From IMG/VR virus record IMGVR_UViG_3300010885_066780: DNA of 64,000 bases; one strand, given 5' to 3'. Positions 5,755 to 55,886 of the stretch are shown one piece after another. The position numbers were made by a program, and so were the translations under genes. Under the pieces are notes generated by a model. It saw only the letters and a program-made list of their open reading frames with translations. It was not told the DNA's origin and ran no database searches. Origin of the DNA: an uncultured virus (IMG/VR IMGVR_UViG_3300010885_066780). Its lineage: Duplodnaviria > Heunggongvirae > Uroviricota > Caudoviricetes. Each line of letters begins with the position of its first letter. Within the stretch, counting starts at the first letter, position 1.

Positions 5755-6215
5755 TTGCCGCCTGCAATTGCTGCTGAAACTGCACCAACTAACAACCGAT
5801 TGTTTGCCCAAGCTGGAGTAGTATTGATTTCAAATTGTGCAATTTGACTGCCAGCATCTCGCAAGCTATTAATTGACGCTAGAAAACTGGTTTCAAAAGC
5901 ACCATTTTTAAATAGCTCATATATACCAACGCCTGTTTGACTACTATAATAAGCTGCAATGGCAGCTAATGTTTGTGTCATTTCCACAGGTATATTTGAA
6001 TCACCAAAAATACCCAACGCATGATTGTAGGCATTGGTGCCTATTTGTCCTGCATAAACAGCTGGATTTTGATTCAACATGTCACTGATAGCATCAATAG
6101 GAACTGTTTTTCCTGTGTTATCAACATAACTTGTTGAGCCATTTGTGGTTGCAGCACTAATAGTACCAGTATTCAGTTGTATTTGTCTAGCAAGGCTATT
6201 TTTTGTTGTTGTCAT
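5751..6215 (-). CDS. hypothetical virion protein
   Basis: 154-aa ORF within the tail-tube operon. Confidence 0.5.
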   Translation of the reverse strand: MTTTKNSLARQIQLNTGTISAATTNGSTSYVDNTGKTVPIDAISDMLNQNPAVYAGQIGTNAYNHALGIFGDSNIPVEMTQTLAAIAAYYSSQTGVGIYELFKNGAFETSFLASINSLRDAGSQIAQFEINTTPAWANNRLLVGAVSAAIAGGK

Positions 6216-9796: not shown

Positions 9797-10750
9797 ATGG
9801 CTCGAATATTATATGTGGTACATAGATATGGATTTCCGGGTGGATCAGAAGTCTATACACAAAACATGGCTGAAGAAACTCAATTACGTGGACATGATGT
9901 CAGTGTATTGACTGGTGAAACCAGTGCACCAATGATAAATGGCATACCAGTATTGTTGGACCCTAATGTGGTTATGACACAACAATGGGATTTGATAGTA
10001 GTTCATGGTGGAAATGTTCCCATGCAAAATTTAATACTTTATCACTCAGCTCAAATACCTAATCCTATTCTCTACCTGCAAATATTACCAAGTGACACAG
10101 AAGTATGTCAAATGGGATTAAAAAACTGTCGGTGGATTGGATGTAGTACTGCCGCTGATTGGCAGCATGCTGAAAAATATGGGGCAAGTGATAGATCAGT
10201 CTATGTACCACATGGAATCACAACTAATACTTCTCTAGGTAATCCGGGTTTCAAACAAAAAAATAATATTACTGGCGCCATGTTTTTAAGTTCTGGTGGG
10301 TTTTGGCCACATAAAGCAATGAATGAATTAGCTGATCTTTGGGCCAGGTTGAATATGACTGCTACATTGGTTTTGACAGGATATGATAATCGACATGGAA
10401 TACAGCCAAAAAACACCAACAAAGTCAAAAGCTTTTTTCTATCAGATCGGCAAGATGTTTTGAACGCAATCAGTGAAGCCGACTGCTATCTTATGCACAG
10501 CTATGAGGAGGGTTTTGGTCTAGTGTTGTTGGAATCAATGTGGAATTCCACTCCCTGGATCGCCCGGGATATTGCTGGTGCGAATTTATTAAAAGCTTGG
10601 GGACAGACTTATTCAACTGATGAACAGTTAGCCAATCTATTGCTGAATTTTAATGAACTTGACTGGGATTTACCTGGGGCAAAACATTATGTGGCAAACA
10701 ATCATTCAATTGCTAATACAGTGGCCGCAATATTGAAGTTGGTTCAATAG
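9797..10750 (+). CDS. GT-B (family 4) glycosyltransferase
   Basis: GGSEVY N-terminus, EGFGLVLLESM motif. Confidence 0.85.
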   Translation: MARILYVVHRYGFPGGSEVYTQNMAEETQLRGHDVSVLTGETSAPMINGIPVLLDPNVVMTQQWDLIVVHGGNVPMQNLILYHSAQIPNPILYLQILPSDTEVCQMGLKNCRWIGCSTAADWQHAEKYGASDRSVYVPHGITTNTSLGNPGFKQKNNITGAMFLSSGGFWPHKAMNELADLWARLNMTATLVLTGYDNRHGIQPKNTNKVKSFFLSDRQDVLNAISEADCYLMHSYEEGFGLVLLESMWNSTPWIARDIAGANLLKAWGQTYSTDEQLANLLLNFNELDWDLPGAKHYVANNHSIANTVAAILKLVQ

Positions 10751-11088
10751 CTTAAAGTTTTATTTTGAAATCGCGTTTTTAGATTTGGAATATCTCCAAA
10801 TGTGATAAAAGCAAAATCGATCTCAGATCGAGCAATATCACTGGCAATATCAAACCATTCACCCGACAATCTATACTGTTTCAATTGGTCATGAATTATT
10901 CGTTCCATGGTCACTGTATTAGCTTCGCTAATTTCACGCGTATATTTTAGAACCAGTGGCTTTCCATGAGCAGTTTGTAACTGGGCCAGTCGAGCAGTGG
11001 GATCTTGACTGTATCCAATCTTCACATGCCCTTGATCTGACTCAATTAAATAAATGAAACTAGTTTTCATCAGCCTATTTATTGTCAA
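10744..11088 (-). CDS. GIY-YIG nuclease (T5orf172/MUG113-like)
   Basis: FIYLI..., VKIGYS, RL.QLQT, E..IH, GEWF. Confidence 0.8.
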   Translation of the reverse strand: MTINRLMKTSFIYLIESDQGHVKIGYSQDPTARLAQLQTAHGKPLVLKYTREISEANTVTMERIIHDQLKQYRLSGEWFDIASDIARSEIDFAFITFGDIPNLKTRFQNKTLSY

Positions 11089-11155: not shown

Positions 11156-11611
11156 ATGAGACAATGTCAAGTAGAAGGTTGTTTAAATACTGGGCAACAT
11201 ACTGGAAAGTATAGAACTGATGGCAGCGTGATATACCGTAATCGTTGTAGACAGCATCACGAAGAATTTACCGCTGCTAAACATGGGTTACCAAGTATAA
11301 AACATGTAATGGCAAAGAATGCTGGATTTGATACTGTTTCTGCATTCGTCAATAGTCAACATCCCTATCGAAAGTATAGAAAAGACTATTGTGAAAATGT
11401 GGTTGGATTTTTAGGCTGGCAATGTACAAGCACAATAATTAATCCGGTTCAACTAGATGTTGATCACATCGATGGTAATCCGGAAAATAATGATCCGGAA
11501 AATTTGCAGACTTTGTGTAAAAATTGCCATTCTGTAAAATCACTGCTCAATAAAGATTATTTGACCCCAGGTAGAAAGCGATTGAAACAAATGACATGTG
11601 AGGCCATCTGA
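11156..11611 (+). CDS. HNH endonuclease
   Basis: LDVDHIDGNPENNDPENLQTLCKNCH. Confidence 0.85.
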   Translation: MRQCQVEGCLNTGQHTGKYRTDGSVIYRNRCRQHHEEFTAAKHGLPSIKHVMAKNAGFDTVSAFVNSQHPYRKYRKDYCENVVGFLGWQCTSTIINPVQLDVDHIDGNPENNDPENLQTLCKNCHSVKSLLNKDYLTPGRKRLKQMTCEAI

Positions 11612-28298: not shown

Positions 28299-28664
28299 AT
28301 GGCTCAAGTAAGATCTATGAGAGGTGAAGTTGTTGATTTCAATGCACTTCAACAAGCACATGCAACCAAAGTTGCGTTGGGGAATGCCAGTATGAATGCC
28401 AAGGGAGACAAAGTGAATCCCAATGGCATTGTATTAAAAACACAGGAACAAATTGAAGCAGAATGGGCAGCACAACAAGCCAAAAATACTGCTAGCGTAA
28501 ATTTTGATATCAAAGGCGCAGTTCCAAAAGATTTGAAACAAGCATTGGATTTACATGATCAAAATTTTGATCCAATTGAATCAAAAGCAATTGAACCAAT
28601 TCCAGAACCCAAGCCTGAAAGTAAGCCAGCCGCAAAATCAGAAAAAACAGAGGCGCCAAAGTAA
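28299..28664 (+). CDS. hypothetical protein
   Basis: RSMRG..VD, A.GN...NA.GD motifs; strong RBS and late motif. Confidence 0.6.
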   Translation: MAQVRSMRGEVVDFNALQQAHATKVALGNASMNAKGDKVNPNGIVLKTQEQIEAEWAAQQAKNTASVNFDIKGAVPKDLKQALDLHDQNFDPIESKAIEPIPEPKPESKPAAKSEKTEAPK

Positions 28665-28993
28665 TGACCGACTATTTTTGGGAACTAGCAGAAGATCAAG
28701 AACTTCGTCCATTGGCTGATGCAGTATTAGTGCACAACATGGAATATGGTGAGAGAAAAACAGCAACAGGAATTATTATCCCGGATGACAATGGTAAAGA
28801 ATCTGGTATTCGTCCTAGACGGTGTCGTGTTTATGCGGTTGGTAAAAATGTTGATGAACTATCTCCGGGCGATTTAATTCTAGTTGCACATGGACGTTGG
28901 ACACGTGGTGTGAAAATAGTAGCAGAAGATGGTAGTTCAACAGTGGTACGCCGCGTTGATCCCAAAGATATTTTGCTGGTCATAGAAGACTGA
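28664..28993 (+). CDS. groES: GroES-like co-chaperonin
   Basis: LRPL.D.VLV, KTA.GIII, V.AVG, GD.ILV, DIL.V. Confidence 0.85.
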   Translation: MTDYFWELAEDQELRPLADAVLVHNMEYGERKTATGIIIPDDNGKESGIRPRRCRVYAVGKNVDELSPGDLILVAHGRWTRGVKIVAEDGSSTVVRRVDPKDILLVIED

Positions 28994-29058: not shown

Positions 29059-29517
29059 ATGAAAATTCGGTATGAAAAAGGTGATTTGCTTGCAGGTCCC
29101 CAACGTGTGAAGTGTCATGGTGCGAATGCACTAGGTGTTATGGGTGCGGGCGTTGCATTGCAAATTAAACAGAAGTGGCCCAACGTATTTGAAATCTATC
29201 AACTGCGTCATCAAACGTTTGGTTTGAATTTGGGAGAAATTATTCCGGTCTATACGACTGATGGGTTTCTAATCTTGAATTGCATTACCCAACAAAATGT
29301 GGGCACTCACCAACGACAAGTTGATTATGCGGCCGTTGAAACTATCTTCAGTCAAATTAACGATAAAGTTCTGGATTGGGAAGTTTCTGAAGTTGCTATG
29401 CCACGAATTGGTGCGGGACTTGCCGGCGGTGATTGGGATATCATTTCAGAAATTATTGAACGTACTGCAACCAACTATACTCCAGTTGTTTGGGATTATG
29501 TTCCGGCTACTCAATAA
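29059..29517 (+). CDS. macrodomain protein (ADP-ribose processing)
   Basis: KGDL, HG.N..G.MGAGVA, MPRIGAGLAGGDW. Confidence 0.88.
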   Translation: MKIRYEKGDLLAGPQRVKCHGANALGVMGAGVALQIKQKWPNVFEIYQLRHQTFGLNLGEIIPVYTTDGFLILNCITQQNVGTHQRQVDYAAVETIFSQINDKVLDWEVSEVAMPRIGAGLAGGDWDIISEIIERTATNYTPVVWDYVPATQ

Positions 29518-33013: not shown

Positions 33014-33535
33014 ATGACCGTAGGCAGCCGAGTAAATCCAAATTATCCTGTTCCAGGAATAAGCCAATCCAGCAAGGGACATCGAGACAATTATTCAATC
33101 ATCAAATCTGAGATTGAAAACTTGCAATCAAAAACGATTCAGCTAGTTGGAAGTGTCACCAGTACTACAATATTAATAGACAGTGGATCAGATCCAATTG
33201 TGATTCAGACCAGCCTGTCTAATTCACAAGCCCATTCACCCAACAAAATCAATACTGGAAACTCTATCACAGTAATTGATAGTTGGTCAAACACAAAATA
33301 CCGATCAGCAAAATATTTGATACAAGCAGTCGTTGGATCAAATGTGGAAATATCAGAAACACTGTTAGTTCAAAATCAAAGTTCAGTGTATATAAACACA
33401 GTAAATCATGTCAACGCAGGATATGTATTGGGAGTGTTATCGGCTGCTATGTCCAGTAGTAATGTAGTAGTTTCTTATAGTGGAACACAATCCAACATTA
33501 ATTTAAGTATTCAAACCAATTATTTTACTTTATAG
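33014..33535 (+). CDS. virion structural protein (N- and C-terminal domains shared with the 13131 fibre)
   Basis: YP..G..Q.S.G.RDN and IDSW...KYRSAKY. Confidence 0.7.
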   Translation: MTVGSRVNPNYPVPGISQSSKGHRDNYSIIKSEIENLQSKTIQLVGSVTSTTILIDSGSDPIVIQTSLSNSQAHSPNKINTGNSITVIDSWSNTKYRSAKYLIQAVVGSNVEISETLLVQNQSSVYINTVNHVNAGYVLGVLSAAMSSSNVVVSYSGTQSNINLSIQTNYFTL

Positions 33536-33971
33536 CATTCAATGTAGTTCTTAATTTCCAGCGATGCATCTGATGTGCATCCAGCCTTTCAGCCAAATAA
33601 TTCATCAATGCTTGATTATTGGCAGTTTCTGCAGCATCAAAAACAGTCTGTAGTAGAACCAACATGGATTCATGATCAACCAATAATTGTTTTAAATATT
33701 CTGTTGCAGACAATGCCACGGTGAAATCCTCAAAGATTGTTTTTTCTTGAAATTCAGCTAGGCCTGCTGGTACGAAAAAATCCAAGCGTCGTATTTTTTC
33801 TGCAATGGTATCTACTTGTTCGTAGATATCTTCATATTGTTCTAAAAAAAGGGCATGTAGTGATTGAAAGAACATGCCTGAAACGTTCCAATGTGCAGCA
33901 TGAGTTTTCAAGTAGAGTGAGAAATTGCTGGCCATTAGAGTCCGCATGTGATCAATTAATTTTTCAGACAT
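33525..33971 (-). CDS. dps: Dps / ferritin-like DNA protection protein
   Basis: KTH..HWNV.G..F..LH..F.EQY, D..AE.IR, H...W. Confidence 0.9.
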   Translation of the reverse strand: MSEKLIDHMRTLMASNFSLYLKTHAAHWNVSGMFFQSLHALFLEQYEDIYEQVDTIAEKIRRLDFFVPAGLAEFQEKTIFEDFTVALSATEYLKQLLVDHESMLVLLQTVFDAAETANNQALMNYLAERLDAHQMHRWKLRTTLNAIK

Positions 33972-34667: not shown

Positions 34668-35687
34668 TCAACCTATTGCAGCAATTAATTCAGGTATTTC
34701 CCAAACAGGTTCCATAATTACAGGGTTATCGCTGAAAACCGGATCCAATTTTTCTGATATTCGGTCTAATATTTCTGAAAATTCTAGTCCGTTTATATCC
34801 AAGTGTATGATTTCAGATGTTGAAGAATAATAATTTATAACTGTTTGAGTTTCTTGATGAAATTTGTCTAATATTGATTTAATTCTATTTTGGGGGAAAT
34901 ATTTTTTTAGATTTTTTGTAATGTTTTTTAAATTCAAGTTTAAATTGATTACTAAATTCGGAGTCACCGACATTTCCATCAACCATTTGATGTCTGCGGT
35001 TGTCTTAGGGTATCCATCAAAAATAAAACCATTTTTTGTGTCGGTGTTTAATAGTCTTTCTCGAATTATTTCGGCAGAGATATAATCTGGAATTAAATTT
35101 TGTTGCATCAAATATTCATTTGCTCTTATTGCTAGTGGATCAGATTTTGCAATCCCAATATTAACTAATTCAATTAGGCTGACATATGGTATTTCATAAA
35201 TTCTAGCTAGTTCACGACACAGCAGTGTTTTATTTGAACAGGGTGGACCAATTATGGAAATTATTGGACACTTGTTTTGGATTGTTTCAGTAACTTTGCG
35301 TGGATTCATTGCTTGTGCATAATCTTCAAGTCCACGGAATACAGGCACGCCCAGCATTTTTTCCAAATCTTCATCAGATCCCACGGTTTTTTTGGGAATA
35401 ATTACTATGGTGTTTTTTCTAACAAGTTTGATTTGATCCAGTATCATATCAATCGTAATCCAATTTGACGTACTCACATTTATAATTTGTATTTCATACG
35501 TAAAGTCAACTGGTGTAATTGATTTTAACATTTTTTGAAGCCCAGTACATTCTAGGCTAGCTGATACGATAATAACATGTTGTGATTTCAGATGCTGAAA
35601 TTCTAAAAGTTTTTGGCGATTTGTTGATTCATATTGATTTCTTGAACAGATTTCTAAAAGATCATATAATTTCAAAGACGTCACCAT
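34668..35687 (-). CDS. adenylate kinase-like protein with an extra N-terminal domain (DUF6513-like)
   Basis: IIGPPCSNKT degenerate P-loop, GFIFDGYPKT, IPD motifs; N-terminal DFTYEIQ...GVPVFRG segment. Confidence 0.7.
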   Translation of the reverse strand: MVTSLKLYDLLEICSRNQYESTNRQKLLEFQHLKSQHVIIVSASLECTGLQKMLKSITPVDFTYEIQIINVSTSNWITIDMILDQIKLVRKNTIVIIPKKTVGSDEDLEKMLGVPVFRGLEDYAQAMNPRKVTETIQNKCPIISIIGPPCSNKTLLCRELARIYEIPYVSLIELVNIGIAKSDPLAIRANEYLMQQNLIPDYISAEIIRERLLNTDTKNGFIFDGYPKTTADIKWLMEMSVTPNLVINLNLNLKNITKNLKKYFPQNRIKSILDKFHQETQTVINYYSSTSEIIHLDINGLEFSEILDRISEKLDPVFSDNPVIMEPVWEIPELIAAIG

Positions 35688-36848: not shown

Positions 36849-37484
36849 TCAATTATCTACCGGAGAAATATATCCGGTCCATCCCACAATTTCATTTGCT
36901 GATCGGTTTGGTGTTGCTTTGACAAATGCCAATGTGATTCGGTCAGTGTATTGATGTTGAAATGAAAATGTCATTTCAAATGTACGCTGTTCTTCAATTG
37001 CTCGGTCCCATTCAGTAATAACTCGGTTTCTATCAGTTTCCAACACGGAATTAATCCAACCATGTCCTATTAGATCCGGCAATGTTCTTCCACTCATACT
37101 CAAATAAGCTGAGTTTACCCAAATAAACTGTCCCTTGTTGTCTGTTTCAAAAATTGCCATGTCGTCTCGATCAAGTATTCCCAATATGCGATCATTTAAA
37201 ATGATTTGTCTGCGATCCAATCGGTTAATTGTATCACGCAGGCTACTGCCGTCATTGGTATATAATTCCTGCAAAATTTTTTCATTTTGTTTGAGAATGA
37301 TCCATGGCAATTGGATTGGAGTAGTAACCCAATTCAAAAATGCAACGATTCTCATTAATGCATTGTACGCGGCCCCTCTGATTGCAGAATTCATAAGAAA
37401 GGTCAGAGATCCAACTAATCCAGATAATATGGTTTTAATTAAGTCAACATGTACAATTATGAAGTGTATTATATTGTGGAACAT
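36849..37484 (-). CDS. membrane-anchored PAS-domain protein
   Basis: N-terminal hydrophobic segments, NDGSSLRD, TD.KG....VN.AY..., LIG.GW, W..A. Confidence 0.75.
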   Translation of the reverse strand: MFHNIIHFIIVHVDLIKTILSGLVGSLTFLMNSAIRGAAYNALMRIVAFLNWVTTPIQLPWIILKQNEKILQELYTNDGSSLRDTINRLDRRQIILNDRILGILDRDDMAIFETDNKGQFIWVNSAYLSMSGRTLPDLIGHGWINSVLETDRNRVITEWDRAIEEQRTFEMTFSFQHQYTDRITLAFVKATPNRSANEIVGWTGYISPVDN

Positions 37485-37953: not shown

Positions 37954-39210
37954 CTACTGCCTGGATTGATCTTGCGTATTGTTTCTAAATTGCATGATTT
38001 GTAGGAATTGTTTCAAACCACGAAAGTTAGCTTCCCGGTCTTCAATCCCATGTAAAGTTCGATTAATGGGTTTGGTAACAGTTTTTGTGTCTTCAAAATT
38101 GTCTGTTTTGGCGGCAACATGCGTTTTCCAAAACCAAATGGTGGTTTCAGCTGCAATCTTGGGATCTCGTTCAACCAATTCTGGATGTGCTTCAAGAGGC
38201 AAGTTTAGGGCTTGTCCAGCCCGCCGATAATTATCTCGACCAGTTAATTGAATATACCCACGTCCATAATATTTTGCGCCATCTCCAGGGTGTTCATTTC
38301 CCAATATTTCAGCAGTTTCAGGATTATGTCTACGATCATATTGCTGCATGAAATCCTGTCGAGTGCCATGTTCTTTTAAAGTTGTAAAATTGGCTGTTTC
38401 ATGAGCGCATTGAGCAATTAGTTGTAGAAGTTCCATGCCCTTTATACCATGTCTTTGAGCAGATTCCAGCAATTCTTTTGCTAATGGCCGTTGTAGAAAT
38501 TCAACTACTTTTTCCACTTCTGTTGTGATTTGTGGTTGCGCCTGGTTTTGACGAACTACCACTGGAGTGGGATCATCTGATGGTTTTCTGGGATCACTGG
38601 TGTTTTCCAGTGGTCTAAAATTTCGATCAAGTGTTTGTTGAATGTAATCTTGATTCATGTTGATTGCTTGACTCAAGATACCTGCTGACGTAAGAATCGC
38701 AGCAGCTGAAATCCCCAGTGATTTTAAAGATTCTGTTAGTTCGTGATCTTCTTCATGTAAAAAACAATCAGCTAATTCTCGGCAAATTTGTTGAATTTCA
38801 GTGTTATTAGTATAAGCTATTTCAAAATTTGGATTAGATAATGTTTGACTGGGATCCTGGTATCCCACATAAACTTGGCAATCTGGTAAACTTTCAATTA
38901 GGGTCTCACAATCAGAGTTAAGTCTGTCTGTCATAGAATCACTGCATGGACTCAAAGTCACGACGATAAGTGAATGTTCAGGCAAGTAACCAAATCGGTT
39001 CCGAAAAATATTTACGGCAGTTCTTTCTGCGTGTTGCCATTTGCCAGATTTTTTGATGCTGGTCGCCGTGGTTTTGTATCCGGTTTCACGATCAATATAT
39101 GCAGCCCCAACTAATCCCCATTTTTCAGGATCGATTTTTTGTCGTTCAATTACGAGATCACATAAATTGATTAGTATTCGGTCTAATTGGTTTCTATTAT
39201 ATGTTTTCAT
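37954..39210 (-). CDS. fusion: N-terminal zinc deaminase-like domain + C-terminal GH19 peptidoglycan hydrolase
   Basis: HAE...TLSPC...C; AQCAHET, LGN..PGDG.KY.GRG.IQLTGR.NY, WFW, IN. Confidence 0.8.
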   Translation of the reverse strand: MKTYNRNQLDRILINLCDLVIERQKIDPEKWGLVGAAYIDRETGYKTTATSIKKSGKWQHAERTAVNIFRNRFGYLPEHSLIVVTLSPCSDSMTDRLNSDCETLIESLPDCQVYVGYQDPSQTLSNPNFEIAYTNNTEIQQICRELADCFLHEEDHELTESLKSLGISAAAILTSAGILSQAINMNQDYIQQTLDRNFRPLENTSDPRKPSDDPTPVVVRQNQAQPQITTEVEKVVEFLQRPLAKELLESAQRHGIKGMELLQLIAQCAHETANFTTLKEHGTRQDFMQQYDRRHNPETAEILGNEHPGDGAKYYGRGYIQLTGRDNYRRAGQALNLPLEAHPELVERDPKIAAETTIWFWKTHVAAKTDNFEDTKTVTKPINRTLHGIEDREANFRGLKQFLQIMQFRNNTQDQSRQ

Positions 39211-39378: not shown

Positions 39379-40698
39379 CATATAATATCTTAAGTATTTA
39401 AGATATCATTACTATTATGATTGAGTCTTTGTTTTTTTCCAAGAGAACTATTTGTACCCTTGTGTGTTTTCTTAGTTAGAGCGCCGAGACCTCTAGTCAA
39501 GATATTACGTGCGGCATTAGTATCTGCGTCGCTGACGTAACCACAATGTACACACACGAAATACTCGCCCCTACGACTATCTGCGTGTACATGCCCGCAT
39601 TCGCTACACCTCTGCGAGGTATAGGCAGGATTTATCCGAAATACATGAACGTCATGTTCAGCAGCTAACTCCTCTATCCGGTTGTTGATATAACTTAAAC
39701 ACCATGCATGGTTTTTATATCCCCAACTTTTACTTGTTTTCATACCAGTTAAATTTTCAGTAATTAAATAATCAATAGCATCAAAATTAATATCTCTCTT
39801 TAACGAGTAATTGATTTCATTACGTAAAAAATTTCTAGCTCGTTTTTGTGCTTTACTACCGTGTTTCTTTGAAGCAACAATATCCATGATTTGATCAATT
39901 GGCAATCCCCTTTTATGAGTTGTTTCCATATGACCATCATCTCTAGCAATCAACTTTTTTCTACCAATGTCAATTGCTTGAATCTTAGTTATGTCATTAC
40001 CGGTATTAATTGGTTTGTGAAAATAAAATCCCAGTGATCCATCATTATTCACACGTAACGAATTGGTTTTTAAAACAAATCCCCTGTCAATTAATTTTTT
40101 CATATGACGCGTTAACACAAGCGGAATATAAAAATTGCCTCTCATGAAAGAAGTTATTTTAATCCAATATTCACAAATAGTTGTATCTTTTGATTTTTCT
40201 ATTGAAATAAATCTTGAATCCAGTTCAATATTAACACTTTTTATATCAATTTGTAATAGGCCCGAATTATATTTTTCCAATATCTCTCTTTGATATTTTT
40301 TTAAATTTGTTGCGTTTTTAGCTAACTTGACTTTATCTGTAATAGATCTAGCTATTGCTACTGCTTGTTTGGCTAGAACTTGGCTCATTCGAGCAGGAAA
40401 TGGCAATGCTGCAACTATTTCTTTGGGAAGAAAGTTTGGTATTTGATCAAAATCATATATTAATTGGTTGATTAATATATGCAATTCAAATTTATATAAG
40501 TCGAAAGGAGTAGTCAAACGTGTTTGTTTCCCAGTATTCGCCAATACGGGATTATAATTACTAATGCGGATATTGTTTTTATTGGGTTTCTTCGCCATTA
40601 GTCAATTCCAACTATTTTTTGTCCATAACTTTATGTTTCGTACTTGTATTTATACTAGAAATATAGTATTATTTGCGATATGAATGAAAATAAATAAT
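39379..40698 (-). mobile_element. TnpB-only (IS1341-like) insertion element
   Basis: Boundaries inferred from the restored HTH reading frame (about 3-nt AAT ambiguity); no tnpA. Confidence 0.65.
39390..40598 (-). CDS. tnpB: TnpB RNA-guided endonuclease
   Basis: RuvC I AIDIG, RuvC II TENL, NPAYTSQRCS.CG...F.C..CG...DAD.NAARNI. Confidence 0.9.
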   Translation of the reverse strand: MAKKPNKNNIRISNYNPVLANTGKQTRLTTPFDLYKFELHILINQLIYDFDQIPNFLPKEIVAALPFPARMSQVLAKQAVAIARSITDKVKLAKNATNLKKYQREILEKYNSGLLQIDIKSVNIELDSRFISIEKSKDTTICEYWIKITSFMRGNFYIPLVLTRHMKKLIDRGFVLKTNSLRVNNDGSLGFYFHKPINTGNDITKIQAIDIGRKKLIARDDGHMETTHKRGLPIDQIMDIVASKKHGSKAQKRARNFLRNEINYSLKRDINFDAIDYLITENLTGMKTSKSWGYKNHAWCLSYINNRIEELAAEHDVHVFRINPAYTSQRCSECGHVHADSRRGEYFVCVHCGYVSDADTNAARNILTRGLGALTKKTHKGTNSSLGKKQRLNHNSNDILNT

Positions 40699-44812: not shown

Positions 44813-44886
44813 TGGTACCCGATGGTGGTTACGCTCCACCTTCTCTGTCGAGTCAGGACAGTGTTCTGCTACTCTACTAATCGGGG
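44813..44886 (-). tRNA. tRNA-Val(GAC), atypical (weak D arm, AGCGTAA T-loop)
   Basis: CTGTC-CTGACTC-GACAG anticodon arm, CCA; 5' end overlaps the stop of the upstream ORF. Confidence 0.65.
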
Positions 44887-45369
44887 TACACTATCTTCAA
44901 ATCTTGCTTTGAGCTCGAGAAATTTTTCATAATCAATATGATCTTGCGCAGCCTCCCGAGATTGAGCTTCTACATTGGCTTGGTGCTTGAAATCCTCAAT
45001 ACGTTGATTGATGTCTATCCACTTGTTTTCAATATAGCCCATGAGTGCTGCATAGCTGTAAATTTCAAACAGTGAATCTTCTGTTTCAACGACGCAAGCT
45101 TCAACAACTGAAATAGGAATTTGAAAATTATGATAGGGTTGCCAAGTATATTGTAATAGGACATGGTCTTCTTCAGTTGCTATCGTGAATTCAGGATCAA
45201 TCTTTCTCCGTCCCCAGCGGCGATCATGAGTTGCTAGGATGTGCCGATCTTCACGATTAATTTCACCCTGTTGACGTTCAAGTTGATTAGAATAGGTCCA
45301 CATGGAAAGAAGACATGAACGCAGACTTTGATCTCGTTCACGTTCTTTGCGAAAATTCAAAGCAGTCAT
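44869..45369 (-). CDS. hypothetical protein, same paralog family
   Basis: DYEKFLELKARFE tail; GGAG RBS; TTGACA-N17-TATTGT upstream. Confidence 0.55.
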   Translation of the reverse strand: MTALNFRKERERDQSLRSCLLSMWTYSNQLERQQGEINREDRHILATHDRRWGRRKIDPEFTIATEEDHVLLQYTWQPYHNFQIPISVVEACVVETEDSLFEIYSYAALMGYIENKWIDINQRIEDFKHQANVEAQSREAAQDHIDYEKFLELKARFEDSVPRLVE

Positions 45370-45447
45370 TTTGCATCTCCAACAAGTGTTACAATGCACA
45401 ATAACAGGATTTATTGCGGTGTCAACTGAATTTTCTAAGAAAATAGC

Positions 45448-45523
45448 TGGTCGAAGCTTCAGGAATCAAACCTGATCAATCTCGCAATGTAAATGCAATG
45501 CCGTCTCATCTGGCCCAGCTTCG
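45448..45523 (-). tRNA. tRNA-Val(TAC)
   Basis: CGAAGCT/AGCTTCG acceptor, TTGCA-TTTACAT-TGCGA, CCA. Confidence 0.8.
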
Positions 45524-45532
45524 ACAATAATA

Positions 45533-45682
45533 TGGTGGACAGCAAGGGAATCGAACCCTTCCTCGTAGAATGCCTTATGGAGATTCTGGATTTGCACCAT
45601 CGCAGGCTATTTTCTGCGTTCTACAATACCGGCGTATCGCTTTCTCCTAAATCTACTGTGCTACCACTATCACTAGCCGCCC
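45533..45682 (-). tRNA. tRNA-Ala with a 75-nt structured insert in the anticodon loop (GGC or TGC after removal)
   Basis: GGGCGGC/GCTGTCC acceptor with G3:U70, normal D and T arms, GTAGA/TCTAC anticodon stem enclosing 82 nt, A-CCA end. Confidence 0.8.
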
Positions 45683-45693
45683 ATTAAAAATTT

Positions 45694-45770
45694 TGGCGCC
45701 CCATGAGAAATTCGAATTCCCGACCCTTGGTTCCGAAGACCAATGCTCTGATCCACTGAGCTAATGAGGC
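45694..45770 (-). tRNA. tRNA-Arg(TCG)
   Basis: TTGGT-CTTCGGA-ACCAA, A20 in the D loop, CCA. Confidence 0.9.
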
Positions 45771-45781
45771 ATATATTTTAT

Positions 45782-46069
45782 TTATCTGTCTTTAAAAACT
45801 TGAATCAAATTTTGAATATCATTACGCACGTGCGTAATAGCTTGTCCCAACCAATTAGTTCCTTGCCAAGTTGATCGATCCAATCGCAGTGGATCGTGTT
45901 CTGACAACCCAATTCCCCATATCTTATCGTATGGACTGGCTTCAACAAAAGTGTCTTCGGTTCTGTTGGACAGCCATAGAGCTAGTTGTGGGTTTTGTGT
46001 GAATTTGGCCAGGTTAGCTCTATAGACAATCAATTTGCATTCCTGTTCCCAAACTGTTTGATGGTATTA
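45782..46069 (-). pseudogene. NADAR (YbiA-like) family, C-terminal remnant
   Basis: KF.QN..L...L, VEASPYD.IWGIG, W.G.N.LG motifs; in-frame stop just upstream, N-terminal half missing. Confidence 0.75.
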
Positions 46070-46164
46070 AAAAACTTGTTATCAGGATTAAATTTCATTC
46101 TCAAATTATATGAATGATAGGCATGAAATCAATCATATAATTTAAATCAGAAATCCAAAATAAT

Positions 46165-47436
46165 TTATTTTCTCGTTAATCTTTTTCGATATCTTTGCTC
46201 TCTAATGGGCGTAACATTAGGATGCTCCTTGGGATCAAATCCCAATGGCTGATAATCAGGACATGCATCTTTTAAAATAGCCAATATTTTCGCTGTGCTA
46301 GTAGCAATACCAGGATGTTCTTTCATTTGATCTTGAATTTCCTGTTTTTCTTCGTCGCTGCGGCCCATACCTGCGCTCCAGCTGATTCCATGAACAACGT
46401 TTACTTTAACGATTTTTCCACGATAAAAAATCATACTAGATGGGATACTTCTAACCCTTAACATACCAACCAAACAACTACCAACAGGACCCCATAGGTC
46501 ATCACCTTTAACAGGCTGTGCCCAATCAGCTTGAATAAAATAAGTTTGAAAATTGCCTATTTTTGCAGCTTCTTGAATTTCTTTTTTAGTATGGTTAGCA
46601 CCATGCCATTCTTCATCTGAATAATAAAACACCCAAACTGGTTTGGTTTGACTTTTTTGTTTGATATTTTCTAAAGCTGCATGGGCTTGTTGCGACAAAT
46701 GCGCATTTTCTTGCTTATCTAACTCTTCTTGTTTACGAGTATCTTTTGCTTTTTTGCTCCAAGGAATGAATTCTGGAAGTTCGAATTCATTTAGCGACAT
46801 TTTAGTATCATAGTCAGGGCATGCATCTTGTACAATTTCTATTATTTTAGCCACATTATTTGCAATGTTAGGCATTTGATTGATTATGCCTCTATTGCCA
46901 ATTCCTGGGTTTCTTTTTATTATTTCATTTCTATCGTCTCTTTCATCTGGAGTTCTAGGCATATCTGAACCCCACATACTGTCAGTATGATGAATTTCGC
47001 TTTTTACTAATTGACCTTTCCAAAACAAATAGCTTGTCGGGATAGTACGAATACCTAGAATACCTTCTAAATATCCACTAATTCTTCCGGTAGCATCATC
47101 GTCAATATCACTAATGTTAGTTGATTGATAATCTAGCACAAAATAAGTTTGGAAATTTCCAAGTCGCGCAGCATCCTTAACTTCTTGTTTCATACTTTCA
47201 TCAGAGTTATCATGAAAAAATAACCAAACCGGACTAATGTAACTGTTTGCTTTAATGGTTTCAAGTTCATGTTCAGCTGCTGCTCGATCTTGTTGATCTT
47301 GTACCTTTTGTTCTCGTGTAGCAATCGCTCTCTTGCTTCCTGGAATGAATTCTGGAAGTTCGAATTCATTTAGCGATTCTTTTGAATCGATTCCTTCAAG
47401 TAGGTTGATTATTTTTCTGATTTGTTCAGTACTCAT
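46165..47436 (-). CDS. protein with a tandem duplicated thioredoxin-like module (probable internal head protein)
   Basis: SLNEFELPEFIP, PVW.F, GNFQTYF, R.IP.S..F..G and DACPDY each occur twice; no CxxC. Confidence 0.6.
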   Translation of the reverse strand: MSTEQIRKIINLLEGIDSKESLNEFELPEFIPGSKRAIATREQKVQDQQDRAAAEHELETIKANSYISPVWLFFHDNSDESMKQEVKDAARLGNFQTYFVLDYQSTNISDIDDDATGRISGYLEGILGIRTIPTSYLFWKGQLVKSEIHHTDSMWGSDMPRTPDERDDRNEIIKRNPGIGNRGIINQMPNIANNVAKIIEIVQDACPDYDTKMSLNEFELPEFIPWSKKAKDTRKQEELDKQENAHLSQQAHAALENIKQKSQTKPVWVFYYSDEEWHGANHTKKEIQEAAKIGNFQTYFIQADWAQPVKGDDLWGPVGSCLVGMLRVRSIPSSMIFYRGKIVKVNVVHGISWSAGMGRSDEEKQEIQDQMKEHPGIATSTAKILAILKDACPDYQPLGFDPKEHPNVTPIREQRYRKRLTRK

Positions 47437-47480
47437 TGTATACTCCAAATGTATTAGCTATTTATATATATATGATAAAT

Positions 47481-47822
47481 TCACCGTAATTGAACCAAGT
47501 CAGGATTGTCAGCAATGAAATCCTGTATCAGAAAAATCAAAGACAGTATTTCAGGATCCGCCGCTCTAGAAAATTGATTGAAAATTCCCAGATAATTCAT
47601 TCGATAGTAGGCAATTAATCTTTCAGCAATTACCAGATCATCTGTCAATAAATTGGCATGGTGAAAGATGATTTCTGCTATGGCAATACCATGTTTCAAT
47701 TCAGTTTTTGAACCAGCTACTGCCCCCACTATTTGAACAAAGTCAATTCCAGCTTGTCGGGCATGTTCTTCAAACCGTTGAGAAATTTCTATCAAGCCAG
47801 GATCAGCAGGGTCAATTTTCAC
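47481..47822 (-). CDS. hypothetical protein
   Basis: 113-aa ORF with late motif upstream. Confidence 0.5.
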   Translation of the reverse strand: MKIDPADPGLIEISQRFEEHARQAGIDFVQIVGAVAGSKTELKHGIAIAEIIFHHANLLTDDLVIAERLIAYYRMNYLGIFNQFSRAADPEILSLIFLIQDFIADNPDLVQLR

Positions 47823-52251: not shown

Positions 52252-52326
52252 TGGATGAAGCGATTGGGGTCGAACCAATAACTACCGATCCAGAGTCGGT
52301 CGTTTTACCAGTTAAACTACGCTTCA
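52252..52326 (-). tRNA. tRNA-Gln(CTG)
   Basis: U1-A72, ACCGA-CTCTGGA-TCGGT, CCA. Confidence 0.9.
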
Positions 52327-52332
52327 AAATTT

Positions 52333-52407
52333 TGGCGCAGATGACCAGGATCGCACTGGCCTAACCCGTTAGACAGACGGGCCTCTTCACTAGATGAGTA
52401 CACCTGC
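52333..52407 (-). tRNA. tRNA-Asp(GTC)
   Basis: CCCGT-CTGTCTA-ACGGG, G73, T-loop TGCGATC. Confidence 0.85.
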
Positions 52408-52415
52408 ATTATAGT

Positions 52416-52509
52416 TGGCGGAGGAAGGGTCGTATTGCACGCCTAACCGGGTCCTAGCCGGTTCTACAGTTTTCAAGACTGTCGTTGGAACTTTCCAACA
52501 TCATCCTCC
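52416..52509 (-). tRNA. tRNA-Ser(TGA), Sec-like D stem, probable 8/4 fold
   Basis: ACAGT-CTTGAAA-ACTGT, GTTGGA/TCCAAC D stem, long V arm, G73. Confidence 0.8.
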
Positions 52510-52517
52510 GTGTGCTT

Positions 52518-52592
52518 TGGTACTAGCGGAAGGTAACGCTCCTTCTACCACAGAGTTATCAGCTCTGGCCCTCACTTTTCGGACTCACTAGT
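52518..52592 (-). tRNA. tRNA-Ile(GAT)
   Basis: CAGAG-CTGATAA-CTCTG, T-loop AGCGTTA, A-CCA. Confidence 0.8.
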
Positions 52593-52634
52593 ATGATTTT
52601 AAAACATTTGAGCTATGGGCACAAATAAATTTGT

Positions 52635-52868
52635 TTAAATGTCAGTTGCAGATCGGTGTGACTTATAATCACGCTCACGTTCTTGCAAATATAATCCATC
52701 TACGATAGCTGGATAAGTTTCCACAACCTGCCACCCATTGGTCCAAGTTCCCGCTTGTCGGAGCCGAACATATTTGCCTGGTATGGCATGCTCAACTGGG
52801 ATCCAAGCCACATGAGTATCACCATTGACTCGTTTCAGTACCGCATGTTTATATTGATTTCGGTTCAT
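52635..52868 (-). CDS. hypothetical protein
   Basis: MNRNQY... start with AGGAGG RBS; the track's longer version overlaps tRNA-Asn. Confidence 0.6.
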   Translation of the reverse strand: MNRNQYKHAVLKRVNGDTHVAWIPVEHAIPGKYVRLRQAGTWTNGWQVVETYPAIVDGLYLQERERDYKSHRSATDI

Positions 52869-52898
52869 AGCTTTCCTCCTTGTGTTTGTTTGAATGAT

Positions 52899-52988
52899 TG
52901 GCTCCTGAGGGAGTAATCGAAACTCCATAACCCTTTCGGGTATACGCCGAGTTAACAGCTCGGTCACCTACCATTAGTGCACTCAGGA
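52899..52988 (-). tRNA. tRNA-Asn(GTT) with a long variable arm
   Basis: TCCTGAG/CTCAGGA, G73, CTGTTAA loop, ACCC-GAAA-GGGT V arm. Confidence 0.85.
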
Positions 52989-53183: not shown

Positions 53184-53270
53184 TGGAGAACCAGGTCAGA
53201 ATCGAACTGACTAGGAGATTCCTCTCGACGAATTAAGAGTTCGTTGGACCGACCATTGTCCATCTGGTTC
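53184..53270 (-). tRNA. tRNA-Lys(CTT) with a long variable arm
   Basis: ACGAA-CTCTTAA-TTCGT, GAGA-GGAA-TCTC V arm, CCA. Confidence 0.85.
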
Positions 53271-53453: not shown

Positions 53454-53532
53454 TGGGTGCGTCGGTGGGAAATGCTCAACCACGATCTCCGGCATATGAA
53501 ACCGGCGAGATAGACTTCTTCTCTACTACGCA
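53454..53532 (-). tRNA. tRNA-Met(CAT), initiator-like, irregular T arm
   Basis: CCGGT-TTCATAT-GCCGG; 5' end overlaps the GIY-YIG stop codon. Confidence 0.7.
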
Positions 53533-54071
53533 TCATTATTCTTTAGTTTGGTTTCTGATATCTTTTTTCTAATTTCATCAGGAACTACTTTACCGGTTAA
53601 GGCTTTTGCTATTTTTCCTTTAGTTTCTATAGAATGTTTTTTACCGAGACGAGATTGTCTAATCTTTTCTATGGTTTCTGGAGAATGCTTTCGTGATTTA
53701 TACTTAATTCTAGTTTCATCTGTTATGATTCTATCCGAACTTGCATATGCAATCTTTTTCTTAGTAGAATTTGAATGACGCTTCCCCTTAAAGTGTGGAC
53801 CGCCTTCGCCGCCTATACCAAGATTATATGTATCTGTTCTACTGACAAATTCTTCAGTTATTAGTTCTTTTTCTTTGGAATTCATCTCTTCTTCTGTATC
53901 AAAGATGAATAAAACCTCTTTAGAAAATTTTTCTTTACCATATTTCTTAATGGCATCTCTTAAATGCTTTCCAGATCCTAAATAGGAATCATTTGGATCT
54001 TTGGTTTGATGTTTTCCAATATAGATTTTACCATTGATTAGGTTCTTGGTCTGATATATCGTATAGTACAT
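53526..54071 (-). CDS. GIY-YIG homing endonuclease (Seg-like, NUMOD3 repeats)
   Basis: YTIY...NLINGKIYIGKH, YLGSG, YN...GG.G, HS.ET..KI repeats. Confidence 0.9.
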   Translation of the reverse strand: MYYTIYQTKNLINGKIYIGKHQTKDPNDSYLGSGKHLRDAIKKYGKEKFSKEVLFIFDTEEEMNSKEKELITEEFVSRTDTYNLGIGGEGGPHFKGKRHSNSTKKKIAYASSDRIITDETRIKYKSRKHSPETIEKIRQSRLGKKHSIETKGKIAKALTGKVVPDEIRKKISETKLKNNDA

Positions 54072-55410: not shown

Positions 55411-55680
55411 CTACCAATACGTAAATTTAAAAATGTAAATTTTATAAAATTTTATTACCTTTTTTCTATTTTCTGATTTAGTTAGGTATTGTAAGTTTGA
55501 AATAGAATGCAACCCTCCTTTGGATATAGGGATAATATGATCGACCTCATATCCTTCGGGACAAGCTTCATAAAATTTTTTAATTGCTGAAAGATCTTCG
55601 TCATGTGGAGTATTATATTTCTTTTTGGCATTATATCTCGCCCATGCTTCTCGTTTGATACCTCGCGTGTGTTCTTTTGA
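55411..55680 (-). pseudogene. HNH endonuclease C-terminal fragment
   Basis: CP.GYEVDHIIP.SKGGLH...NLQYLT..EN; sequence upstream of about 55680 is the antisense of another gene. Confidence 0.7.
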
Positions 55681-55886
55681 TACCTTGGGTAGATTCCAAT
55701 AATAAAAATAGAAAATATTTTCCGGATTTTTACCTACCAAAATATGATCTTTATTTAGATCCAAAAAATGATTACCAAATAAAGATTGGTCAAGAAAAGT
55801 TAGATTGTGTTTCAAACAAAATTCATCTAATTTATGGTCGAGTTGAATATATTCAACAATATATTTTGAATATCATGACCAGTTAA
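55677..55886 (+). pseudogene. PD-(D/E)xK nuclease C-terminal fragment
   Basis: IPW.D....RKYFPDFYLP.YD.YLDPKN. Confidence 0.7.

What the first reader, a model, noticed from the sequence alone, without database searches (positions are those of the whole stretch)
45533..45682. tRNA-Ala with a 75-nt cloverleaf-like element nested in its anticodon loop
Seen: an otherwise intact tRNA (G3:U70, A73, CCA, normal D and T arms) whose GTAGA/TCTAC anticodon stem encloses 82 nt instead of 7. The extra 75 nt fold by eye into a four-way junction: closing stem GGAGA/TCTCC, hairpin GCGATAC-GCCG-GTATTGT, hairpin CGCAG-AAAATAGC-CTGCG and a T-loop-like hairpin TGG-TGCAAAT-CCA. Removing 45575-45649 gives TT-GGC-AT and removing 45574-45648 gives TT-TGC-AT. 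Both are Ala anticodons, matching the acceptor identity. Known: G3:U70 specifies alanylation, and bacterial tRNA introns are group I ribozymes of roughly 200 nt or more with a U before the 5' site and a terminal G. The second register obeys this U|...G| rule, but 75 nt is too short for a group I core and no bulge-helix-bulge is evident. Inference: it may be a new mini-intron spliced in trans or by a protein, or an unspliced aminoacylatable double-tRNA decoy or tmRNA-like RNA.
Basis: partly seen in the sequence, partly recalled or inferred. Interest (0 to 1): 0.88.

Follow-up and report, generated by a model that had tools for sequence, protein, structure and literature searches.

The report
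Folded insert splitting phage alanine tRNA
A large freshwater bacteriophage carries an otherwise perfect alanine tRNA gene whose anticodon loop is split by a 75-base, tightly folded insert that fits no known intron type, so the phage either cuts it out by a route not yet described or uses the RNA unspliced.

Summary
On the minus strand at 45533-45682 lies a complete tRNA-Ala body: G3:U70, A73, CCA, Rfam tRNA 33 bits against a cut-off of 29. A 75-nt insert sits in its anticodon loop and folds into a four-way junction (insert alone z = -3.4).

It is not an assembly artefact. An 88%-identical metagenome relative (L114) carries the insert with 2 changes, both of which keep base pairs. Contigs of two further runs cross it without skipping it.

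It is not a group I intron, a bulge-helix-bulge intron, a tmRNA or any Rfam family. It also differs in build and position from the 'enigmatic' nested-tRNA introns of Lak megaphages.

Only removal of RNA 35-109 (giving UGC) or 34-108 (giving GGC) restores a normal Ala anticodon loop. UGC is mildly favoured.

Best reading (0.45): a protein-spliced tRNA intron. Rivals: an unspliced Ala-accepting RNA, a dead gene, or a small new ribozyme.

I obtained no RNA data, no insert-free allele, no two-sided covariation and no ligase or nuclease candidate. The insert is no better conserved than the neighbouring spacers.

This scan has flagged other non-group-I inserts in phage tRNAs on other DNA. None is similar in sequence to this one. 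I rate it a new variant of a known but unexplained kind.

The parts
45649..45682 (-). 5' exon of tRNA-Ala (RNA positions 1-34 in the UGC register): acceptor 5' strand with G3, D arm, anticodon stem 5' strand, U32 U33 U34
   Evidence: Rfam tRNA alignment; ARAGORN with introns; 34 of 34 identical in L114
45574..45648 (-). 75-nt insert (RNA 35-109, UGC register; the GGC register is 45575-45649)
   Evidence: ARAGORN intron call; folds alone at z -3.36; no Rfam family at E <= 10; 73 of 75 identical in L114
45533..45573 (-). 3' exon (RNA 110-150): G35 C36 A37 U38, anticodon stem 3' strand, variable loop, T arm, acceptor 3' strand with U70, A73, CCA
   Evidence: 41 of 41 identical in L114
45643..45651 (-). 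5' strand of the long closing helix (RNA 32-40: UUUA + GGAGA)
   Evidence: Minimum-energy and consensus folds
45574..45583 (-). 3' strand of the closing helix (RNA 100-109: UCUCC, bulged A105, UAAG); followed by the 4-nt bulge G110-U113
45623..45640 (-). Hairpin 1 (RNA 43-60), 7 pairs, loop GCCG; G45>A in L114 turns G-U into A-U
45601..45618 (-). Hairpin 2 (RNA 65-82), 5 pairs, loop AAAAUAGC; C81>U in L114 turns G-C into G-U
45587..45599 (-). Hairpin 3 (RNA 84-96), 3 pairs, loop UGCAAAU closed by G-C. By inspection it resembles a T loop (U at the first and A at the fifth loop position, C at the third) but has G where tRNAs have U55
   Evidence: Fold; the T-loop likeness is my reading of the sequence and was not scored by any tool
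45448..45523 (-). tRNA-Val(UAC), 9 nt downstream on the same strand (context: tRNA cluster)
45694..45770 (-). tRNA-Arg(UCG), 11 nt upstream on the same strand (context: tRNA cluster)

Best explanation
This is a working phage tRNA-Ala gene interrupted between U34 and G35 by a 75-nt structured intron that cannot splice itself.

The gene is transcribed with its neighbours tRNA-Arg and tRNA-Val. In the precursor the tRNA body folds normally, and the insert folds as a separate four-way junction. Its closing helix runs on from the anticodon stem, which brings the two exon-intron borders to the same 4-pair helix, 3 pairs apart.

Protein endonucleases (host or phage) then cut at U34|A35 and G109|G110. 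The alternative is one position upstream at each border, which gives GGC. The two tRNA halves stay together through the tRNA body, and an RNA ligase seals the nick in the anticodon loop. The product is a 75-nt tRNA-Ala(UGC) that reads the phage's commonest Ala codon, GCA.

Shown: the gene, the fold, its retention in relatives, and which registers restore an Ala anticodon loop. Inferred: that it is transcribed, that it is spliced at all, the register, and the enzymes.

The most concrete enzyme guess is RNase P plus RNase Z treating the junction as a tRNA-like handle, followed by an ATP-dependent ligase. I hold this at only about 0.15. Counting 7 pairs from the junction predicts the GGC register, not UGC, and the T-like hairpin is not stacked directly on the closing stem.
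For: (1) The exons form a complete tRNA-Ala that reaches Rfam's tRNA cut-off despite the insert (33 vs 29 bits).
(2) Of 8 possible 75-nt excisions, only the two starting at RNA 34 or 35 keep U32, U33 and an Ala anticodon that matches G3:U70. All seven original loop nucleotides survive as UUU + GCAU.
(3) None of the other 13 tRNAs in the window is a tRNA-Ala. GCA is the most used Ala codon (526 of 1356 Ala codons in the 55 ORFs counted). Three of the five four-codon-box tRNAs in the window have U34.
(4) The insert is old and retained. L114, 88.2% identical over 3 kb, has exons 75 of 75 and insert 73 of 75 identical, and both changes keep a pair (G-U to A-U, G-C to G-U). Contigs of relatives in runs X3 and X4 cross the gene with no joint that skips the insert. 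X4 depth fractions imply about 8-11 nt fewer inside the insert, so it is kept but its length is not fixed (table 2; my inference).
(5) The insert folds better than shuffles (z -3.36).
(6) A contig in run X2 shares 35 of 40 nt with the 5' exon plus upstream spacer, then continues as an uninterrupted tRNA-Ala with loop UUUGCAA (tables 7 and 8). This favours UGC.
(7) Precedent exists. Non-group-I inserts in phage tRNA genes are in print (PMC6784885, passages and Table S6; PMC13037316, one passage). In the Lak phages, alleles with and without the insert exist.
Against: No RNA evidence exists.

No insert-free allele of this gene was found, so the borders are not fixed by comparison.

The 67 window ORFs scanned against Pfam include no RNA ligase, RtcB, polynucleotide kinase or tRNA-splicing endonuclease. 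However, the window is only part of the genome.

The insert (97.3%) is no better conserved than the neighbouring spacers (209 of 216, 96.8%), so purifying selection on it is not shown. Only 2 substitutions are available, both one-sided, so there is no true covariation.

The structure fits no known splice-site motif. An RNase III-type 2-nt stagger on the closing helix would leave a 6- or 8-nt loop (my geometry on the fold). The naive RNase P/Z rule on the whole 9-pair helix would leave a 3-nt loop.

The element was found in one phage lineage only.
Confidence: 0.45

Rival explanations
1. The RNA works unspliced. The tRNA body supplies end processing, stability and charging with alanine, because AlaRS needs only G3:U70 (established knowledge). 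The 75-nt four-way junction is the working part, acting as a decoy or sponge for a host factor, a natural 'tRNA scaffold', or a tmRNA-like RNA.
For: Ala is the one identity that does not depend on the anticodon. The insert is a compact independent fold with a T-loop-like hairpin (by inspection). No splicing motif or enzyme was found.

One curiosity: the frame from UAG (RNA 34-36) to UAA (106-108) is open for 23 codons after an AGGAG, and both L114 substitutions are synonymous in it.

This scan noted anticodon-less tRNA-like RNAs in other phages. These are unchecked AI notes, leads only.
Against: All seven anticodon-loop nucleotides are kept in two blocks that rebuild an Ala anticodon, which an unspliced RNA would not need.

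For the tmRNA version: ARAGORN finds no tmRNA. Rfam gives only 12 bits to a permuted-tmRNA model, and that match lies outside the insert. A full D arm and anticodon stem are present. The frame has no usual start codon. The synonymous pattern rests on 2 changes, with a chance of about 1 in 9.
Confidence: 0.25
2. It is a disabled tRNA gene: a clean but unspliceable insertion that the phage lineage has carried neutrally (a pseudo-tRNA).
For: No splicing route is evident. Conservation of the insert and exons is not clearly above that of the local spacers. With the spacer rate, about 2.4 changes would be expected in the 75 exon nt and 0 are seen, P about 0.09 (my calculation). The insert is confined to one lineage.
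Against: The insert is shared by variants that differ by 12-15% elsewhere, yet the exons are 75 of 75 identical in L114. The insert's two changes both keep pairs. The insert folds far better than shuffles. No other tRNA-Ala lies in this tRNA-rich window.
Confidence: 0.12
3. The insert is a small self-cleaving or self-splicing ribozyme of a new class. It frees itself, and the exons are rejoined by the reverse reaction or by an RtcB-type ligase.
For: The fold is a compact junction. The UGC register has U before the 5' border and G as the last insert base, as in group I introns (sequence).
Against: No match to any ribozyme family in Rfam 15 at E <= 10. 75 nt would have to act at two sites. In the fold, U34 pairs with A107 at the insert's 3' end and forms no U-G pair with a guide near its 5' end. 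No conserved-core evidence is available.
Confidence: 0.08
4. It is an assembly chimera or sequencing artefact.
For: None found.
Against: Independent contigs of 4 runs and 2 JGI records hold the junctions.
Confidence: 0.01

Closest known systems
'Enigmatic' introns in tRNA genes of Lak megaphages (Devoto et al. 2019, PMC6784885; I read passages of the main text and Table S6). The same kind is reported for 262 alternatively coded jumbo phages (PMC13037316; one passage read).
   Same: A phage tRNA gene is split in the anticodon loop by a 79-114-nt (here 75-nt) non-coding insert with no Rfam family. The insert is partly tRNA-shaped and highly conserved, and its mechanism is unknown.
   Different: By inspection of Table S6, the Lak inserts sit one base 3' of the anticodon. 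They begin with a small hairpin and an A/T-rich linker, and end in a mini-tRNA whose canonical T arm (GGTTCGAAtCC type) directly abuts its closing stem. One of them is called a tRNA by Rfam.

Here the insert sits inside the anticodon (34/35), and the closing stem is made of its two ends. The T-like hairpin has 3 pairs and is set off by GAA, and the tRNA model does not match. I saw no sequence similarity by eye and did not run an alignment. Here the genome uses the standard code (long ORFs under table 11), and no insert-free allele is known.
Bacterial group I introns in tRNA anticodon loops (cyanobacterial tRNA-Leu(UAA) between U34 and A35; review PMC3984707, passages read)
   Same: The insertion point is the same, between positions 34 and 35. 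U lies before the 5' border and G is the last base (UGC register).
   Different: The insert is 75 nt, against roughly 200 nt or more for group I introns (recalled). There is no catalytic core and no Rfam RF00028 match. No P1 with a U-G pair is present.
Archaeal and eukaryal protein-spliced tRNA introns (bulge-helix-bulge; review PMC4090602, listing and abstract only)
   Same: The proposed logic is the same: endonuclease cuts in a precursor held together by the tRNA body, followed by ligation. A bulge next to the anticodon stem on the 3' strand followed by a 4-pair helix recalls one half of the motif.
   Different: There is no second bulge on the 5' strand. The borders needed for an Ala anticodon do not lie where that motif would be cut. 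The host is presumably bacterial, and no splicing endonuclease was found in the window.
tmRNA
   Same: Ala identity through G3:U70, a T arm, CCA, and an internal stretch with an open frame ending in UAA.
   Different: A full D arm and anticodon stem are present and there are no pseudoknots. Neither ARAGORN nor Rfam calls a tmRNA. The frame is buried in helices.

Membership tests
tRNA (Rfam RF00005), isotype Ala | Full cloverleaf scoring at or above the family cut-off | tested here: met
   33.0 bits vs 29, model positions 1-71 of 71, with a 78-nt insertion in the anticodon loop
tRNA (Rfam RF00005), isotype Ala | G3:U70 pair, A73, and an Ala anticodon in a 7-nt loop | tested here: inconclusive
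   G3:U70, A73 and CCA are present in the sequence. An Ala anticodon loop exists only after removal of RNA 34-108 or 35-109, and that removal is not shown
Group I intron (RF00028) | Conserved catalytic core (P3-P9) detectable by the covariance model | tested here: not met
   No match at E <= 10 in 401 nt or in the insert alone, and none at E <= 0.1 in the window. The insert is only 75 nt
Group I intron (RF00028) | U before the 5' splice site paired to G of an internal guide; terminal G | tested here: inconclusive
   U34 and G109 are present in the UGC register. In the fold, however, U34 pairs with A107 near the insert's 3' end
Group I intron (RF00028) | Self-splicing with guanosine and Mg2+ | not testable with these tools
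   Needs an in vitro transcript
Bulge-helix-bulge tRNA intron | Two 3-nt bulges on opposite strands separated by a 4-pair helix, each holding a splice site | tested here: not met
   The fold has a 4-nt bulge (G110-U113) and a 1-nt bulge (A105), both on the 3' strand. The 5' border for Ala lies inside the 4-pair helix
Bulge-helix-bulge tRNA intron | A tRNA-splicing endonuclease in host or virus | tested here: inconclusive
   None among the 67 window ORFs by Pfam. The rest of the genome and the host are unknown
Lak-type nested-tRNA introns of phage tRNAs | Non-group-I, non-coding insert in the anticodon loop of a phage tRNA gene with no Rfam family | tested here: met
Lak-type nested-tRNA introns of phage tRNAs | Build: 5' hairpin, A/T-rich linker, then a mini-tRNA with a canonical T arm abutting its closing stem; placed one base 3' of the anticodon | tested here: not met
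   Comparison by eye of Table S6 with the fold. The insert alone is not matched by the tRNA model. Its position is 34/35
Lak-type nested-tRNA introns of phage tRNAs | Alleles with and without the insert in related phages | tested here: not met
   Every relative seen keeps the insert (L114, and contigs of X3 and X4). Few relatives could be reached
tmRNA | tRNA-like domain without an anticodon arm, pseudoknots, and a tag frame; detected by ARAGORN or Rfam | tested here: not met
   No tmRNA. There is only a 12.1-bit permuted-tmRNA match, at 45511-45560. D and anticodon stems are present

The most novel reading that the evidence does not exclude
The insert belongs to a still undescribed kind of tRNA intron in bacterial viruses: a folded RNA junction that marks itself for excision by protein nucleases, with the halves rejoined by an RNA ligase. 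That would be a cut-and-rejoin tRNA splicing pathway operating in bacteria, where only self-splicing tRNA introns are established. This example sits inside the anticodon (34/35) and is built differently from the Lak type, so such introns would have arisen more than once. A bolder reading that my evidence does not exclude, at about 0.03-0.05, is an Ala-charged non-decoding RNA with a 23-codon frame, a phage mini-tmRNA.
Probability: 0.4. Interest if true: 0.85.

Novelty: new variant of a known kind. Interest (0 to 1): 0.55.

Why it matters
Bacteria and their viruses are taught to have only self-splicing (group I) tRNA introns. Enzyme-spliced tRNA introns are a hallmark of archaea and eukaryotes.

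Short structured inserts in phage tRNA genes have been seen since 2019 but never explained. This locus adds a compact, clean example in a standard-code freshwater phage, at a different position and with a different build. Its predictions are exact: two candidate pairs of cut sites, a 75-nt product with loop UUUGCAU or UUGGCAU, and a 75-nt excised junction.

If it is spliced, it points to an unknown RNA-processing route in bacteria. That route could serve to gate tRNA supply during infection, or to shield the anticodon from host anticodon nucleases.

If it is not spliced, it is a natural tRNA-scaffolded RNA chargeable with alanine. Either outcome can be tested with a 150-nt transcript.

Tried and rejected
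**Homologue searches that found nothing useful**
- IMG/VR 16-mer of the T-like hairpin: 111 loci, none matching more than 21 nt of the query, so chance.
- IMG/VR exon patterns of 25, 20 and 21 nt: 0 hits each.
- Neighbour protein ORF176 in IMG/VR: 0 relatives. Clamp loader: 1 locus at 31% identity.
- GTDB genomes, 20-mer: 1 hit in a Bacterioplanes contig that is not a tRNA.
- Cultured phages by blastn: 45 records, all covering 25% of the query or less, mostly T arm/acceptor of tRNA-Ala. The 4-kb flank matched only tRNA-Arg.
- Intact NADAR protein of L114 in IMG/VR: 80 loci at 39-62% identity, none holding a look-alike. ARAGORN with introns on them gave 10 calls in 7 of the 80 loci, none an Ala. 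I did not check them, and some may be adjacent tRNAs joined by the program.
- Covariance model R1 of the insert plus anticodon stem: it matched only the window and L114 among 83 sources and 503 kb, and 0 of 5 whole huge-phage records. DNA search of those 5 records gave T-arm-sized matches only.
- Earlier notes of this scan: no look-alike by sequence, and no notes on this genome.
- No second copy of the insert in the window.

**RNA and expression**
- No RNA holder was listed among the 5 runs.

**Enzyme candidates**
- No ligase, kinase or splicing nuclease by Pfam in 67 ORFs.
- The tRNA-region ORFans gave nothing in PHROGs or NCBIfam. The one I ran against the PDB, the 427-aa ORF, also gave nothing.

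**Ideas rejected**
- A DNA transposon with a TA duplication: removing G36-A105 plus one TA leaves a 10-nt loop.
- RNase III: a 2-nt stagger gives a 6- or 8-nt loop.
- An intron at the canonical 37/38 position: it gives anticodon UAG on a class I body with Ala identity, and the window already has a tRNA-Leu(UAG).
- The plus-strand ORF 45493-45687: both L114 changes fall on second codon positions (my calculation).
- ARAGORN's 'tRNA-Leu(taa) with a 395-nt intron' at 52252-52745 reuses the strong tRNA-Gln, so I judged it spurious.

**Literature**
- Seven searches found no paper giving a mechanism for non-group-I inserts in phage tRNAs. Subscription-only papers are not covered.

Full report
**What is there.** The window is part of a large tailed phage from fresh water. 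It encodes tail tube proteins, a head-tail adaptor, tail fibres, a clamp loader and a terminase fragment. It also carries many homing-endonuclease-type genes and a TnpB-like gene. Its GC content is 35-44%. The five sequencing runs that hold it are four labelled freshwater metagenome and one labelled only metagenome.

Thirteen tRNA genes lie on the minus strand between 34.5 and 58.5 kb. Default ARAGORN and Rfam's fast filters do not report a fourteenth. It lies between tRNA-Arg(UCG) and tRNA-Val(UAC), at 45533-45682. With more permissive filters, Rfam's tRNA model matches it end to end at 33.0 bits (cut-off 29), with 78 nt set aside as an insertion in the anticodon loop. The body has G3:U70, A73, CCA, a GG-containing D loop and a canonical T arm.

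**The insert.** It is a four-way junction with closing stem GGAGA/UCUCC, a 7-pair hairpin with loop GCCG, a 5-pair hairpin with loop AAAAUAGC, and a 3-pair hairpin with loop UGCAAAU.
- The insert alone folds at -21.8 kcal/mol against -12.6 +/- 2.8 for shuffles (z -3.36; 1 of 200 shuffles as good).
- The closing stem continues for four more pairs (U32-A35 with U106-G109, A105 bulged), up to a 4-nt bulge (G110-U113) that abuts the anticodon stem. Both candidate borders therefore lie on one short helix.
- By inspection, the third hairpin has T-loop features (closing G-C, U at loop position 1, C at 3, A at 5).
- The insert alone matches no Rfam family, tRNA included, at E <= 10. 'Nested cloverleaf' therefore describes the topology and is not a family assignment.

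**Is it real?** Yes.
- Contigs of run X1 tile the locus with no difference, and X2 holds part of it.
- Two JGI contigs contain it. L113 is identical to the window over 5,023 nt, and L114 is a relative at 88.2% identity over 3 kb.
- Contigs of relatives in X3 (which matches L114's pattern of differences) and in X4 (about 85% identity in this block) cross the gene. The only joint reported anywhere on the stretch skips the neighbouring ORF, not the insert.
- From the X4 depth fractions per bin, I infer about 8 nt missing within 45572-45625 and 3 within 45626-45679. The insert would then be kept but somewhat shorter. I could not see that sequence.

**Conservation.** In L114 the exons are 75 of 75 identical and the insert 73 of 75.
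- The two changes are G45>A (G-U to A-U in hairpin 1) and C81>U (G-C to G-U in hairpin 2). Both keep a pair but are one-sided.
- This does not demonstrate selection on the insert. The spacers of this tRNA block are just as conserved (209 of 216), and the other tRNAs score 72 of 75, 76 of 76 and 76 of 77, whereas the ORFs are 83-92% identical.
- Both changes are also synonymous in the one open frame of the insert, 23 codons between UAG at RNA 34-36 and UAA at 106-108, after an AGGAG. With two changes this is a curiosity, with a chance of about 1 in 9.

**Which borders?** Removing 75 nt in the eight possible registers gives GGC (start at 32-34), UGC (35), Val UAC (36) or Leu UAG (37-39). Only starts at 34 and 35 keep U32, U33 and an Ala anticodon that agrees with G3:U70. 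Three observations mildly favour UGC:
- ARAGORN chooses it.
- GCA is the top Ala codon (526, against GCT 486, GCC 227 and GCG 117), and most of the phage's four-box tRNAs have U34.
- An X2 contig shares 35 of 40 nt with the 5' exon and upstream spacer, then runs on as an uninterrupted tRNA-Ala with loop UUUGCAA.

**What it is not.**
- Group I intron: the insert is too short and has no model match. U34 pairs with A107, not with a guide G.
- Bulge-helix-bulge intron: both bulges are on the 3' strand.
- tmRNA: there is no ARAGORN or Rfam call, and full D and anticodon stems are present.
- Repeat or mobile DNA element: there is no second copy in the window, and a TA-duplication model leaves a 10-nt loop.
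- RNase III substrate that yields a tRNA: a 2-nt stagger leaves 6 or 8 loop bases.

**What it is closest to.** The nearest known thing is the 'enigmatic' introns of Lak megaphage tRNAs (PMC6784885; passages and Table S6 read). A 2026 survey also reports tRNA introns that 'could encode another tRNA' in 262 alternatively coded jumbo phages (PMC13037316; one passage read). By eye, the Lak inserts are built differently. They have a 5' hairpin, an A/T-rich linker and a mini-tRNA with a canonical T arm abutting its closing stem, and they sit one base 3' of the anticodon. They also occur as present/absent alleles. The present insert shares the general kind but not the build, the position or any sequence I could see. 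A 2014 review states that all phage introns then known were in protein-coding genes (PMC3984707, passage). This scan has flagged other non-group-I inserts in phage tRNAs on other DNA. None is similar in sequence to this one. Those notes gave me the lead to the Lak paper, and I do not count them as evidence.

**How it most likely works.** I commit, at 0.45, to a protein-spliced intron. The precursor folds with the tRNA body intact. The junction presents both borders on the closing helix. Endonucleases cut at U34|A35 and G109|G110, or one base upstream at each border. A ligase then seals the nicked anticodon loop to give tRNA-Ala(UGC).

The enzymes are unknown. RNase P plus RNase Z would leave directly ligatable 3'-OH and 5'-P ends. 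If one counts a 7-pair 'acceptor' from the junction (U34-A107 as the first pair, A108 as discriminator), they would cut exactly in the GGC register. That counting rule is an assumption, the T-like hairpin is not stacked on the closing stem, and the register disagrees with the mild preference for UGC. I hold this version at about 0.15.

No ligase or nuclease candidate is present in the 64 kb, and the one neighbouring ORFan I ran against the PDB (the 427-aa ORF) matched nothing. The two optional neighbour genes are each absent from a relative that keeps the insert, so neither is needed for it.

The rivals are:
- an unspliced Ala-accepting RNA, as scaffold, decoy or tmRNA-like (0.25);
- a neutral dead gene (0.12);
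- a new small ribozyme (0.08);
- an artefact (0.01).

**Limits.** I obtained no RNA data (one search listed no RNA holder). No insert-free allele was found. Only one readable relative was available. The metagenome and genome scans were capped at one each, and the rest of the phage genome is not held.

**Verdict.** The finding is a new variant of a known but unexplained kind, of moderate interest, with sharp and cheap experimental tests.

Noticed in passing
window 46063-47486 (with 45782-46033): Relative to L114, the window carries about 1.4 kb with a 427-aa ORFan (46165-47448) in place of about 275 nt. In L114 the NADAR gene is intact (164 aa). In the window only its C-terminal 83 aa remain as an ORF. 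Contigs of X3 and X4 also diverge from the window at 46062. It looks like a gene insertion that truncated NADAR.
   Followed up: partly
window 44847-45422: The 176-aa ORFan between tRNA-Thr and tRNA-Val is absent from the X4 relative, whose contig joins 44846 to 45423 with 4 other letters. It is very variable in L114 (83% identity, 38 gap positions). It is an optional gene inside the tRNA cluster.
   Followed up: partly
window 53184-53270 and 52899-52988: Two over-long tRNAs. tRNA-Lys(CUU) is 87 nt with a paired extra arm and scores 40.5 bits on Rfam's tRNA-Sec model (cut-off 47). tRNA-Asn(GUU) is 90 nt with a long, mostly unpaired variable region.
   Followed up: no
window 52327-52898: About 570 nt between tRNA-Gln and tRNA-Asn has no convincing ORF and no Rfam match at E <= 0.1. 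ARAGORN's 'tRNA-Leu(taa) with a 395-nt intron' here reuses tRNA-Gln and looks spurious.
   Followed up: partly
window 39390-40598; 53526-54071; 11156-11611; 55411-55815; 10744-11088; 5293-5811: There is a dense set of selfish-nuclease-type genes in one phage window: TnpB-like (Cas12f1-like TNB domain), GIY-YIG with NUMOD3, two HNH, T5orf172/MUG113, and a TnsA-like endonuclease N-terminal domain.
   Followed up: no
window 34668-35687; 37954-39210; 2421-2960; 33525-33971; 28664-28993; 29059-29517; 36849-37484: Unusual cargo for a phage: adenylate kinase fused to DUF6513; a protein with a deaminase-like N-terminus and a class I chitinase (GH19) domain; Fe/Mn superoxide dismutase; a ferritin-like protein; Cpn10; a macro domain; and a PAS-domain protein.
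   Followed up: no
window 45575-45649, minus strand: The 75 nt of the GGC-register insert are exactly stop + 23 sense codons + stop (UAG ... UAA), preceded by AGGAG. Both L114 substitutions are synonymous in that frame and also keep base pairs.
   Followed up: partly
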